Positions 11,251 through 11,425 of a DNA stretch of 32,000 nucleotides are shown here, one piece after another. The translations under genes were made by a program, and so were the position numbers. The notes beneath the pieces were generated by a model. It did no database searches and was not told the DNA's origin. It saw only the letters and a program-made list of their open reading frames with translations. How positions within the stretch are numbered: the stretch's first letter is position 1; every line of letters starts with the position of its first letter. Source of the stretch: an uncultured Clostridia bacterium (GTDB lineage: Bacteria > Bacillota > Clostridia > TANB77 > CAG-508); assembly GCA_944390445.1 (NCBI GenBank), contig CALXQB010000004.1:1848-33847 (forward strand), read 5' to 3'.

Positions 11251-11425
11251 GGGTCGGTCAAGACCGACCCCTACAAAAAATTATTCACTATTCATTAAAA
11301 ACATATGTAGGGGTCGGCGCCCACGCCGACCCATGCTACGAAGAAATCTCTTAAATGTATGGACGATTAAAATCGCCCGGACTTTGAAGAATTCTCTAAA
11401 TGTAGGGGCTGGTCTTGACCAGCCC
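11251..11425. repeat. REP/BIME-like cluster A: four GC-rich palindromes
   Basis: The elements are 11251-11274 (- orientation, ...cccctac), 11307-11332 (+), 11357-11378 (+, degenerate head gtat) and 11402-11425 (+). They are joined by conserved linkers acgaagaaat.tcttaaatgt. Confidence 0.7.

What the first reader, a model, noticed from the sequence alone, without database searches (positions are those of the whole stretch)
11251..11425. GTAG-headed GC-rich palindromes in singlets, inverted doublets and arrays: REP/BIME (REPIN)-like elements in an AT-rich Firmicute
At least 13 elements in the window have the form (t)GTAG + GGG-N4-6-loop-N'4-6-CCC. They lie at 8567, 11251(-), 11307, 11357, 11402, 12872(-), 12920, 12973, 13019, 21668, 22822, 24778 and 24830. 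Headless relatives lie at 5089, 10200 and 10982. Stem sequences fall into families with compensatory changes (gggctGgtcttgacCagccc / gggctCgtcttgacGagccc / gggtcGgtcttgacCgaccc) and occasional G-T pairs. Some elements form head-to-head inverted pairs (11251/11307 and 12872/12920). A conserved 5' GTAG followed by an imperfect GC-rich palindrome is the defining architecture of REP elements recognised by RAYT (TnpA-REP, IS200/IS605-like) transposases. As far as I know these are mostly described in Proteobacteria. No RAYT gene is present in this window.
Basis: partly seen in the sequence, partly recalled or inferred. Interest (0 to 1): 0.65.

Follow-up and report, generated by a model that had tools for sequence, protein, structure and literature searches.

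The report
REP repeats with clostridial RAYT transposase
The GTAG-headed GC-rich hairpins are real REP-type repeats scattered between the genes of an AT-rich uncultured gut Clostridia bacterium, and close relatives encode the matching RAYT transposase with the same hairpins inside its own gene, so this is a known kind of element in a host group where the papers I read do not describe it.

Summary

**In the window.** There are 17 elements or remnants of three stem types (A, B, C). All are intergenic, although only 15% of the window is intergenic. TGTAGGGG occurs 9 times against 0.49 expected by chance.

**Elsewhere.**
Most came from Oscillospiraceae, Faecousia, Ruminococcus and Clostridia MAGs, often as inverted doublets.
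- The six positions left free in the pattern were Watson-Crick complementary in 153 of 161 hits.

**The transposase.**
- No Y1 transposase lies in the window. RAYT genes occur in low-GC relatives (L151/L253, L257, L260).
- They have NH[IV]H, WQ and YIxNNP motifs. The best family match is NCBIfam REP_Tyr_transpos. The best structural match of the AlphaFold model is E. coli RAYT bound to REP (4ER8).
- Each gene carries two type-C REPs in frame.
- In L257 one in-gene REP equals window 11402 and 24830. The contig also holds the 75-nt type-B element of window 8543-8615 next to different genes.

**Verdict.** This is a new member of a known kind, TnpA-REP subclass 2.4 (RAYT group 4). Untested: RAYT activity, a RAYT in this exact genome, the genome-wide copy number, and any RNA-level role of the arrays upstream of three paralogous surface-protein genes.

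The parts
5088..5111 (.). Headless type-A palindrome (tgggtcggcg-aggg-cgccgaccca), 43 nt after the stop codon of the M23 peptidase gene.
   Evidence: (family D9)
5170..5191 (+). Remnant holding the 3' half of a type-C REP (..tagtcttgacaagccca). A 62-nt palindrome separates it from 5088-5111.
   Evidence: family D8
8543..8615 (+). 75-nt type-B composite unit. The REP core GTAGGGGCGAT-ttta-ATCGCCC lies at 8567-8588. It is flanked by aagtaattt...aaattactt and by the tail gttcttcgaagaaattacttaaaaca.
   Evidence: (D6), 70, 86, 87: 97-100% identical copies in L257 next to different genes
10199..10220 (.). Headless type-C-like palindrome (tgggacggt-attg-accgtccca), 20 nt after the sortase gene.
10982..11000 (+). 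Degenerate, headless type-B hairpin (gggcaat-ttta-atcgtcc) downstream of the leader-1 promoter.
   Evidence: D6
11251..11274 (-). Type-C REP in reverse orientation (GTAGGGGTCGGT-cttg-ACCGACCC on the minus strand).
   Evidence: The 24-mer is identical to the site-1 REP inside the RAYT genes of L151, L253 and L260.
11307..11332 (+). Type-A REP (GTAGGGGTCGGCG-ccca-CGCCGACCC).
11333..11356 (+). Conserved linker (atgctacgaagaaatctcttaaat) between REPs A and B.
   Evidence: (D14)
11357..11378 (+). Degenerate type-B REP (GTATGGACGAT-taaa-ATCGCCC).
   Evidence: (D6)
11379..11401 (+). Conserved linker (ggactttgaagaattctctaaat) between REPs B and C.
11402..11425 (+). Type-C REP (GTAGGGGCTGGT-cttg-ACCAGCCC), 41 nt upstream of the ATG of paralog 1.
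   Evidence: Identical to the site-2 REP inside the L257 RAYT gene.
12872..12897 (-). Type-A-like REP in reverse orientation (GTAGGGGTCGCCG-cctt-CGGCGACCC on the minus strand).
12920..12946 (+). Type-A REP (GTAGGGTGTCGGCG-ccca-CGCCGACCC).
   Evidence: D7, D9
12973..12994 (+). Type-B REP with one T.G wobble (GTAGGGGTGAT-ttca-ATCGCCC).
13019..13042 (+). Type-C REP (GTAGGGGCTCGT-cttg-ACGAGCCC). Relative to 11402 it carries a compensatory G>C / C>G change.
21668..21692 (+). Type-C REP 20 nt after a gene end and followed by TTTTATTATT. It is the only copy that looks like an intrinsic terminator on the GTAG strand.
   Evidence: also present in strains L261 and L262
22822..22848 (+). Type-A REP (GTAGGGTGTCGGCG-ccat-CGCCGACCC).
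   Evidence: (D7)
24778..24804 (+). Type-A REP in the leader of paralog 3.
24830..24853 (+). Type-C REP in the leader of paralog 3, identical to 11402.

Best explanation
These are REP elements: short, non-autonomous, single-strand-DNA hairpin repeats with a 5' GTAG guide. They belong to a REP/RAYT system of low-GC Clostridia.

**Proposed mechanism.** A single-copy HUH/Y1 'REP-associated tyrosine transposase' (TnpA-REP subclass 2.4, RAYT group 4) encoded elsewhere in the genome binds the folded GTAG-bearing strand. It cleaves and rejoins that strand when the DNA is single-stranded, for example at the replication fork. This seeds, duplicates and reshuffles REPs, REP doublets and short arrays in intergenic DNA.

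**Shown here.**
- The architecture of the elements.
- Their excess over chance.
- Their strict intergenic location.
- Dispersal to unrelated loci and genomes.
- Compensatory stem evolution.
- A strand bias.
- RAYT genes in close relatives that carry the same REPs.

**Inferred.**
- That this RAYT actually cuts and joins these REPs.
- That the window's own genome encodes one (my estimate is about 0.7).
- That the copies have secondary effects on the RNAs that contain them. Copies 20-45 nt behind stop codons would act as 3' stabilisers or terminators. Copies in the leaders of the three paralogous surface-protein genes would act as 5' structures.
For: **Architecture and statistics in the window.**
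- GTAG sits at the foot of 7-9-bp GC-rich stems with 4-nt loops.
- TGTAGGGG occurs 9 times against 0.49 expected.
- All 17 elements are intergenic.

**Dispersal.**
Most are Clostridia MAGs with 26-60% GC, and several MAGs are hit on 4-8 contigs.
- Among these hits there are 28 tail-to-tail doublets and 4 head-to-head doublets.
- Low-GC relatives (SIG349, RGIG2998 and others) show the same types, including B-like pairs around a cttcgaag centre.

**Structure under selection.**
- In 153 of 161 hits the two free triplets are fully complementary, using at least 14 different pairs. Shuffling the partners gives a mean of 42.
- Among stems with a single mismatch, G.T outnumbers A.C by 8 to 2 on the GTAG strand.
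- In 12 of 13 singlet REPs the GTAG strand is the G-rich strand.

**The transposase.**
- The L013 ORF matches Pfam Y1_Tnp at 28.2 bits, above the 23-bit cut-off.
- The L151 RAYT homologues include P0134, P0137 and P0139. P0134, P0137, P0139 and P0142 score 58-70 bits on NCBIfam NF047646 REP_Tyr_transpos, against 10-23 bits on the IS200 model.
- The motifs NH[IVL]H, WQ and YIxNNP equal those of Quentin 2018 subclass 2.4.
- The AlphaFold model has pLDDT 86. Its top PDB match is 4ER8_A, E. coli RAYT bound to a REP hairpin, with E 3.6e-7 and TM-score 0.62.

**Cognate link between RAYT and the REPs.**
- Each RAYT gene carries two type-C REPs in frame, translated as GSVKTDPY and VGAGLDxP.
- The site-1 REP of L151, L253 and L260 equals window 11251-11274. 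The L257 site-2 REP equals window 11402 and 24830.
- In the L260 contig, REP doublets flank the gene on both sides, a REPtron arrangement.
- L253 is 100% identical over 3059 bp to a contig end of MAG SIG349, which has REP doublets on 4 contigs.
- The in-gene REPs are 45-48 of 48 nt identical between genes that are otherwise 67-73% identical, and their only stem change is compensatory.

**Turnover.** The three paralogous leaders differ in REP content: reverse-C + A + B + C, reverse-A' + A + B + C, and A + C.
Against: - No RAYT gene lies in the 32-kb window. I could not read the rest of this genome, so a RAYT in this exact organism rests on contig L257. That contig shares the sample cohorts, 30% GC, identical REPs and a paralog of the window's gene family, but it is not proven to be the same species.
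- Of the 17 copies, 11 sit in three leaders that arose by gene duplication, so fewer independent insertions are documented in the window than the count suggests.
- No presence/absence polymorphism was seen in the three same-species strain contigs (L261, L262, L263).
- The arrays are head-to-tail, unlike classical alternating BIMEs.
- RAYT scores are below the NCBIfam trusted cut-off (70 against 80 bits). For P0137, P0134 and P0142 they are also below the Pfam gathering score (19-22 against 23 bits); P0139 just reaches it at 23.1 bits.
- Types A and B were not found inside or next to a RAYT gene.
- No biochemical activity has been tested for any subclass 2.4 enzyme in the papers I read.
Confidence: 0.82

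Rival explanations
1. The hairpins are simply transcription terminators or 3' mRNA stabilisers that evolved in place, with no mobility and no dedicated enzyme.
For: - Five copies lie 20-45 nt after stop codons (5088, 8567, 10199, 21668).
- 21668 is followed by a T-tract and is called terminator-like.
- The A-run before GTAG makes several copies terminator-like on the opposite strand.
Against: - Twelve of the 13 headed copies lack a T-tract on the GTAG strand.
- Eleven copies lie in 5' leaders, downstream of a separate and much stronger terminator-like hairpin.
- The GTAG head is invariant and unpaired, which termination does not require.
- Identical 24-75-nt copies occur at unrelated loci and inside RAYT genes.
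- This can be a secondary role of some copies. It cannot explain their origin.
Confidence: 0.06
2. The arrays are a locus-specific regulatory RNA structure of the leaders of the three paralogous surface-protein genes, and were copied only by gene duplication.
For: - Eleven of 17 copies lie in the three paralogous leaders.
- RNA folding of 11230-11465 pairs 11251(-) with 11402(+) around the A and B hairpins. The energy is -78 kcal/mol and the z-score -6.45.
- Stems differ between paralogs by compensatory changes.
Against: - The same elements occur at five unrelated intergenic sites in the window.
- They also occur next to unrelated genes in L257, in many other genomes, and inside RAYT genes.
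- The leaders differ in which REP types they contain, which fits turnover better than a fixed structure.
- No Rfam family matches.
Confidence: 0.06
3. They are end-derived miniature elements of an ordinary IS200/IS605 insertion sequence, not REPs served by a domesticated RAYT.
For: - IS200/IS605 transposases are common in Clostridia (Quentin 2018).
- They also recognise subterminal hairpins with a 5' guide tetranucleotide.
- The predicted RAYT fold also matches ISDra2 and IS608 TnpA.
Against: - The associated proteins score 58-70 bits on the RAYT model and 10-23 bits on the IS200 model.
- They have YIxNNP rather than Y..Q, and WQ.
- They are single genes without tnpB in every context read: L253, L257 and L260, and L124 and L128.
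- The best structural match is RAYT 4ER8.
- The GTAG head is the REP signature.
Confidence: 0.04
4. The regularly spaced repeats at 11307-11425 and 12920-13042 are a degenerate CRISPR-like array.
For: Units of about 24-27 nt repeat at about 50-nt spacing.
Against: - The three 'repeats' of an array are different sequences (types A, B, C).
- The 'spacers' are conserved between arrays (D14, 90).
- No cas gene lies in the window.
- Singlets occur elsewhere.
Confidence: 0.01

Closest known systems
TnpA-REP subclass 2.4 (Quentin et al. 2018, PMC6006769), equal to RAYT group 4 (Bertels et al. 2017), and its REPs
   Same: - The motifs match: HuH as NH[IFV]H, then WQ and YIxNNP.
- The protein is short (about 160-195 aa), with no C-terminal domain.
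- The REPs are long, with three G-C pairs at the bottom of the stem. 'Double-foot' variants appear among the metagenome hits.
- REPs are inserted in frame inside the tnpA-REP gene, in the variable regions flanking the HuH motif.
- REPs flank the gene (L260).
   Different: - The host group differs. The paper names Cyanobacteria, Bacteroidetes 'and various phyla'; here it is low-GC uncultured gut and rumen Clostridia.
- The in-gene REPs are conserved at the nucleotide level across genes only 67-73% identical, and their stem variant matches the dispersed variant of the same lineage.
- In the window the REPs form head-to-tail A-B-C arrays.
E. coli REP/BIME elements and RayT (YafM; subclass 2.2, group 2; PDB 4ER8)
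   Same: - A 5' GTAG sits at the foot of an imperfect GC-rich palindrome.
- Several REP types (y, z1, z2) coexist in one genome.
- Conserved linkers separate the REPs.
- Location is extragenic, often just behind genes.
- A single Y1 enzyme acts strand-specifically on the folded single strand (PMC3333891, PMC8266576).
- It is the best structural match of the P0137 model.
   Different: - E. coli REPs have a conserved bulge that is needed for activity, and longer stems. These are short, near-perfect stems with 4-nt loops.
- E. coli BIMEs alternate REP and iREP. The arrays here are direct.
- E. coli RayT has a C-terminal tail that contacts GTAG, which is absent here.
- Sequence identity is about 25-29%.
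REPINs and group 3 RAYTs of Pseudomonas and Stenotrophomonas (Bertels & Rainey 2011; Nunvar 2010)
   Same: - Short, perfect 8-bp stems with small loops.
- Inverted doublets (tail-to-tail pairs 48-136 nt end to end in relatives) that can fold into a larger hairpin.
- A single-copy RAYT flanked by its REPs.
   Different: - The Y motif belongs to a different RAYT subclass (YI[VI]ANP against YIxNNP).
- Those RAYT genes carry no in-gene REPs.
- The window holds mostly singlets and direct arrays rather than doublets.
IS200/IS605 transposons (IS608, ISDra2)
   Same: - The HUH/Y1 fold.
- Recognition of single-stranded hairpins with a 5' guide tetranucleotide.
- An expected bias to the lagging-strand template, which fits the strand bias seen here.
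   Different: - Those elements are autonomous and multicopy, usually with tnpB.
- Their Y motif is Y..Q.
- They have no GTAG head.
Small repeats described in Firmicutes (BOX, RUP, bcr1, EFAR; listed in PMC3733652)
   Same: They are intergenic, structured, multicopy short repeats in Gram-positive genomes.
   Different: Those are 70-300-bp MITE-like or modular elements with terminal inverted repeats. They have no GTAG head and no RAYT association.

Membership tests
REP, GTAG superfamily (Di Nocera 2013) | An unpaired 5' GTAG tetranucleotide directly at the foot of the stem. | tested here: met
   Twelve of 13 headed copies have GTAG, and one has GTAT. The same head is seen in all related loci.
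REP, GTAG superfamily (Di Nocera 2013) | A 20-40-nt GC-rich, imperfect palindrome that forms a stem-loop, with complementary changes among copies. | tested here: met
   - The elements are 22-27 nt, with stems of 7-9 bp.
- DNA folding gives -4.4 to -13.2 kcal/mol.
- In 153 of 161 hits the unconstrained triplets are complementary.
REP, GTAG superfamily (Di Nocera 2013) | Many copies dispersed in extragenic DNA of one genome. | tested here: inconclusive
   - All 17 copies in the window are intergenic and occupy 8 regions.
- Further copies lie on other contigs of the same or a close species (L257) and on 4 contigs of MAG SIG349.
- A genome-wide count for this organism could not be made.
REPIN / BIME organisation | REPs paired in inverted orientation, able to fold into a larger hairpin. 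| tested here: met
   - In the window: 11251(-)/11307(+), 12872(-)/12920(+), and the long-range pair 11251(-)/11402(+).
- In relatives: 28 tail-to-tail doublets.
BIME (E. coli type) | Arrays in which REP and iREP alternate in orientation. | tested here: not met
   The arrays 11307-11425, 12920-13042 and 24778-24853 are all in the same orientation. Conserved linkers are present.
REPtron (RAYT plus cognate REPs) | A RAYT gene in the same genome, flanked by the REP type that is dispersed in that genome. | tested here: inconclusive
   - Met in relatives. In L260 REP doublets flank the gene on both sides. The SIG349 genome has RAYT plus dispersed doublets. The L257 RAYT carries the window's CTGG variant.
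- There is no RAYT in the window, and the rest of this genome could not be read.
RAYT / TnpA-REP (HUH Y1 enzymes) | An HUH metal-binding motif and a catalytic tyrosine in a YIxxNP motif, on the IS200-like fold. | tested here: met
   - P81, H83, H85, Y145 and N149 are invariant (P0137 numbering).
- NF047646 scores 58-70 bits, below the 80-bit cut-off.
- Pfam Y1_Tnp scores 19-28 bits.
- The AlphaFold model has pLDDT 86, and its top hit is 4ER8_A with TM-score 0.62.
TnpA-REP subclass 2.4 (Quentin 2018) | The motifs NH[IFV]H, WQ and YIxNNP, with REPs inserted in frame within the gene. | tested here: met
   - MPNH[IVL]H, WQRNYYEH and YIQNNP/YIQYNP are present.
- In-frame REPs are seen in L013, L124, L132, L151, L253, L257 and L260.
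RAYT / TnpA-REP (HUH Y1 enzymes) | Strand-specific binding and cleavage/rejoining of single-stranded REP DNA. | not testable with these tools
   This needs purified protein and oligonucleotide substrates. The only indirect support is the G.T over A.C asymmetry and the strand bias.
Rho-independent terminator | A GC-rich hairpin immediately followed by a U-tract on the transcribed strand. | tested here: not met
   Only 21668 qualifies on the plus strand.
CRISPR array | Identical repeats, unique spacers and nearby cas genes. | tested here: not met
   The repeats differ (types A, B, C), the spacers are conserved between arrays, and there is no cas gene.

The most novel reading that the evidence does not exclude
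The REP copies inside the RAYT gene may not be accidental insertions. They could be maintained 'master' copies that couple the enzyme to its substrates.

**Support.**
- They are kept nearly invariant at the nucleotide level (45-48 of 48 nt) in genes otherwise only 67-73% identical.
- They change by compensatory substitution.
- Their stem variant matches the variant dispersed in the same lineage: CAGG/TCGG in SIG349, and CTGG/TCGG in the window's lineage.

**Related reading for the window.** The head-to-tail A-B-C arrays closed by an inverted C pair may have been co-opted as a 5' RNA module. They sit in the leaders of a (CA)n-switched surface-protein gene family.
Probability: 0.15. Interest if true: 0.6.

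Novelty: new member of a known kind. Interest (0 to 1): 0.4.

Why it matters
REP/RAYT systems are studied almost only in Proteobacteria. The surveys I could read list no GTAG REPs in Firmicutes.

This result places a canonical GTAG REP family and its RAYT in abundant uncultured gut and rumen Clostridia, including genomes with only 26-30% GC. In such genomes the GC-rich hairpins stand out and are easy to map.

Practical uses:
- It explains recurrent GC-rich hairpins that would otherwise be annotated as terminators.
- It flags likely breakpoints in MAG assemblies.
- It offers a compact enzyme of about 160 aa with a 24-nt substrate for testing how subclass 2.4 RAYTs recognise perfect-stem REPs.
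- It raises a testable question: why do the RAYT genes keep their own substrates in frame?

It does not reveal a new kind of system.

Tried and rejected
- **Rfam (gathering thresholds) and tRNA scan of the window:** nothing found.
- **Megablast of 10 kb against phage and plasmid collections:** no match, so the window is chromosomal DNA of an uncultured organism.
- **phmmer with E. coli RayT against all ORFs of the 118 genome blocks:** only an Acidobacteriota hit (L120), too insensitive for the clostridial clade.
- **All-against-all clustering of ORFs in those blocks,** to find a gene recurrently next to REPs: no such cluster.
- **HUH...Y..NP regex:** this did find the first RAYT, in L013.
- **phmmer of the L013 RAYT against PDB sequences:** no hit. 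The link to 4ER8 needed a structure prediction.
- **First profile search:** the best-ranked homologues did not include the window's REP types.
- **Same-species strain contigs (L261, L262, L263):** examined for REP presence/absence polymorphism. None was seen at 8567, 21668 or 22822.
- **The 62-nt palindrome at 5112-5173:** not found in any fetched locus.
- **Literature searches** for REP, REPIN or RAYT together with Firmicutes or Clostridia terms: nothing specific.
- **Pfam, NCBIfam and PDB searches of the three paralogous downstream proteins:** no family.
- **CRISPR and plain-terminator readings:** considered and rejected (see the rival explanations).
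Full report
**Setting.** The window is chromosomal DNA with about 30% GC and a strongly positive GC skew. Almost every gene is on the plus strand: ftsE/ftsX, two M23 peptidases, ctpA, lepA, an rRNA methyltransferase, sortase, a YkuD transpeptidase, hrcA-grpE-dnaK-dnaJ, phoH, UDP-glucose pyrophosphorylase and mfd. 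It matches no phage or plasmid record. Identical proteins are found only on contigs from animal-gut metagenome series (BRZ_*, ONAT22-1, ERR4096396). The nearest genome-collection block, L037 (titled 'uncultured Clostridia bacterium'), is 73% identical over mfd. Calling it an AT-rich Firmicute is therefore reasonable.

**The observation.** The copies fall into three stem types.
- Type A: GTCGGCG-ccca-CGCCGAC.
- Type B: GGGCGAT-ttta-ATCGCCC.
- Type C: GGGCTNGT-cttg-ACNAGCCC, or GGGTCGGT-cttg-ACCGACCC.

Some corrections are needed.
- 11357 is a decayed copy.
- Three type-A copies have one extra base after GTAGGG.
- The type-B hairpin at 8567 is the core of a 75-nt unit (8543-8615).
- A further half-element lies at 5170-5191.
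- In the arrays the hairpins are joined by conserved linkers of about 23 nt of the form ..cttcgaagaa.tt.ct.taaa, which gives a period of about 50 nt.

This is far more than chance. TGTAGGGG occurs 9 times against 0.49 expected. All 17 elements or remnants lie in the 15% of the window that is intergenic. Folded as single-stranded DNA the hairpins are stable.

- Nearly all are MAGs titled Oscillospiraceae, Faecousia, Ruminococcus, Acutalibacteraceae, Clostridia or Clostridiales. Their GC content runs from 26 to 60%, and individual MAGs are hit on up to eight contigs.
- The pattern left six positions free. In 153 of 161 hits the two triplets are perfectly complementary, using at least 14 different pairs. 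Shuffling the partners gives 42 on average. This is a fair test of selection on the hairpin.
- Inverted tail-to-tail doublets are common: 28 against 4 head-to-head.
- Low-GC MAGs like the window's organism (SIG349, RGIG2998, Lapin bins, BRZ_BL bin74) carry the same C variants. They also carry B-like pairs arranged around a palindromic cttcgaag centre. This explains the 'tail' of the window's type-B and type-A copies as half of a doublet spacer.

**The transposase.** The window has no Y1 gene, and E. coli RayT as a phmmer query found none in the Clostridia blocks.
- An HUH...Y..NP motif search found an ORF in L013, an Oscillospiraceae MAG. It passes Pfam Y1_Tnp (28.2 bits against a cut-off of 23).
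- This ORF contains two type-C REPs in frame, translated as GSVKTDPY and VGAGLDPP.
- Its homologues are named 'REP element-mobilizing transposase RayT' by JGI. The family is very large: at least 7,972 hits in the word-indexed search, and 9,879 clusters at 50% identity with E of 1e-10 or better.
- Other members also hold an inverted REP pair inside the gene (L124, L132).

**RAYT genes in low-GC relatives.** I scanned the metagenomes for an AT-rich HUH-coding motif followed within 12-42 nt by GTAGGGG. Almost every hit has a REP hairpin at that place. One hit, L151 (28% GC), has type-C REPs at both sites. Searching with its protein gave a clade of RAYTs 63-96% identical to it, and I read three genomic contexts.
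- **L253** is 100% identical over 3 kb to a contig end of MAG SIG349. That MAG has type-C doublets on four contigs, built from exactly the two variants (CAGG, TCGG) that sit inside its RAYT gene.
- **L260** shows a REPtron: REP doublet, then RAYT with two internal REPs, then REP doublet.
- **L257** comes from the same sample series as the window and has 30% GC.
  - Its RAYT site-2 REP, GTAGGGGCTGGTCTTGACCAGCCC, is identical to window 11402 and 24830.
  - It holds two tandem copies of the 75-nt type-B unit, 97-100% identical to window 8543-8615 but behind aspS instead of lepA.
  - It holds a further paralog of the window's surface-protein gene family.
- The site-1 REP of L151, L253 and L260 is the same 24-mer as window 11251-11274.

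**What the proteins are.** All evidence points to RAYT rather than an IS200 transposase.
- They have the MPNH[IVL]H, WQ and YIxNNP motifs.
- They score 58-70 bits on NCBIfam REP_Tyr_transpos, against 10-23 bits on the IS200 model.
- An AlphaFold model of P0137 has pLDDT 86, with the two REP-encoded stretches as its least confident internal parts. Its best PDB match is 4ER8, E. coli RAYT bound to a REP hairpin.
- These motifs, the perfect stems with three G-C pairs at the bottom, and above all the in-frame REPs inside the gene define TnpA-REP subclass 2.4, which equals RAYT group 4 (Quentin 2018).

**Mechanism.** From the E. coli, Stenotrophomonas and Marinomonas enzymes (PMC3333891, PMC8266576), a RAYT binds the folded GTAG-bearing single strand but not its complement, and cleaves and rejoins next to the hairpin. 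I infer the same here. Three observations fit strand-specific action on single-stranded DNA.
- Single mismatches in stems are mostly G.T on the GTAG strand (8 against 2 A.C). The sample is small.
- Twelve of 13 singlet REPs in low-GC loci have the GTAG strand on the G-rich strand, which is the sequence of the lagging-strand template. Transcription runs the same way, so the two causes cannot be separated.
- The three paralogous leaders differ in their REP content (reverse-C + A + B + C, reverse-A' + A + B + C, and A + C). Units have therefore been gained, lost or replaced since the genes duplicated.

Activity itself is untested, and so is the presence of a RAYT in this exact genome.

**Possible secondary roles.** Some copies sit 20-45 nt behind stop codons, and one (21668) looks like a terminator. 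Eleven copies lie in 5' leaders, after a separate strong terminator-like hairpin. Folded as RNA, the finding's own interval 11251-11425 forms one large structure, in which the inverted C pair closes around the A and B hairpins (z-score -6.45). Whether this matters for expression is open.

**Beyond what the papers describe.** The in-gene REPs are 45-48 of 48 nt identical between RAYT genes that are otherwise 67-73% identical. Their only stem change is a compensatory pair. Either the hairpins are selected as nucleic acid inside the gene, or they are homogenised with genomic copies.

**Comparison and novelty.** This is the same kind of system as known REP/RAYT pairs. It passes every subclass 2.4 feature I could test, and it fails only the E. 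coli-style alternating BIME order.
- Di Nocera 2013 found GTAG REPs in Proteobacteria, Cyanobacteria, Chloroflexi and the PVC group, and does not mention Firmicutes.
- Bertels 2017 notes RAYT group 1 in Clostridia in one clause.
- Quentin 2018 gives 'various phyla' for subclass 2.4.
- My searches found no description of a clostridial REP family, but the library is incomplete.

I therefore file it as a new member of a known kind, of moderate interest.

Noticed in passing
window 10908-11465, 12610-13082, 24423-24937 (leaders); genes 11466-12422, 13083-14504, 24938-26251: Three paralogous genes encode proteins with a basic, single-helix N-terminus (MEKKQKRRKEKGITLVALVVTIIVLIILAGV...) and have no Pfam, NCBIfam or PDB match.

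The leaders of about 515-560 nt share these parts, in order:
- A near-consensus promoter at leaders 1 and 2 (TTGACA-17-TATTAT); leader 3 has a weaker match (TTGACG-17-TAAAAT).
- A 20-22-codon ORF, MN(R/E/K)SGKRWESN(TH)nDII, whose TH run is a (CA)n tract. Here n is 12 and 9 in two window copies and 13 in strains L261 and L262.
- A terminator-like hairpin with a 20-bp stem and a T5 run.
- AATGAATAAT repeats.
- The REP array.

It looks like a translation-coupled attenuator or a phase-variable switch.
   Followed up: partly
window 18114-19332 (dnaJ) and 27823-31255 (mfd): dnaJ is split into two overlapping ORFs (18114-18797 and 18772-19332). The same split is called in two independent assemblies of other strains (L261, L262), so it is probably not a sequencing error of this record. 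mfd is likewise split (27823-30753 and 30719-31255).
   Followed up: partly
window 5088-5191: This is a composite. A headless type-A REP is followed by a 62-nt perfect palindrome (atgtcgtcaatttaaggctgtaattagc / gctaattacagccttaaattgacgacat) and then the 3' half of a type-C REP. It looks as if another palindromic element sits between or inside REPs. The palindrome was not found in any fetched locus.
   Followed up: partly
L261:11729-13898, corresponding to window ~24700-24717: A same-species strain (97.6% identical over 11.6 kb) carries an IS21-family element (IstA/IstB). It is inserted in the AT-rich stretch just upstream of REP 24778, in the leader of paralog 3.
   Followed up: partly
window 26350-26412; also 24350-24409, 26270-26329, 26416-26475: A fourth copy of the leader's terminator-like hairpin lies downstream of paralog 3. 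A separate 60-nt repeat (ggagayattccttaaagttcaaag...) occurs three times around that gene (families D4 and D10).
   Followed up: no
L253:5007-5507, L257:6573-7067, L260:10001-10486: The RAYT gene sits in a different neighbourhood in each relative:
- between a PHO4 transporter gene and coaE in L253;
- between a 2Fe-2S thioredoxin-like (NuoE-type) gene and NuoF-like and Fe-hydrogenase genes in L257;
- downstream of pheT in L260.

The gene itself has therefore moved or been acquired separately.
   Followed up: no
L133-L252 (metagenome scan): Across very diverse environmental contigs, the stretch just after the HUH motif of RAYT genes almost always holds a GTAGGGG hairpin. It is often the 'double-foot' form GTAGGGGC...GCCCCTAC. 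In-gene REPs are therefore a very widespread habit of this RAYT subclass.
   Followed up: partly
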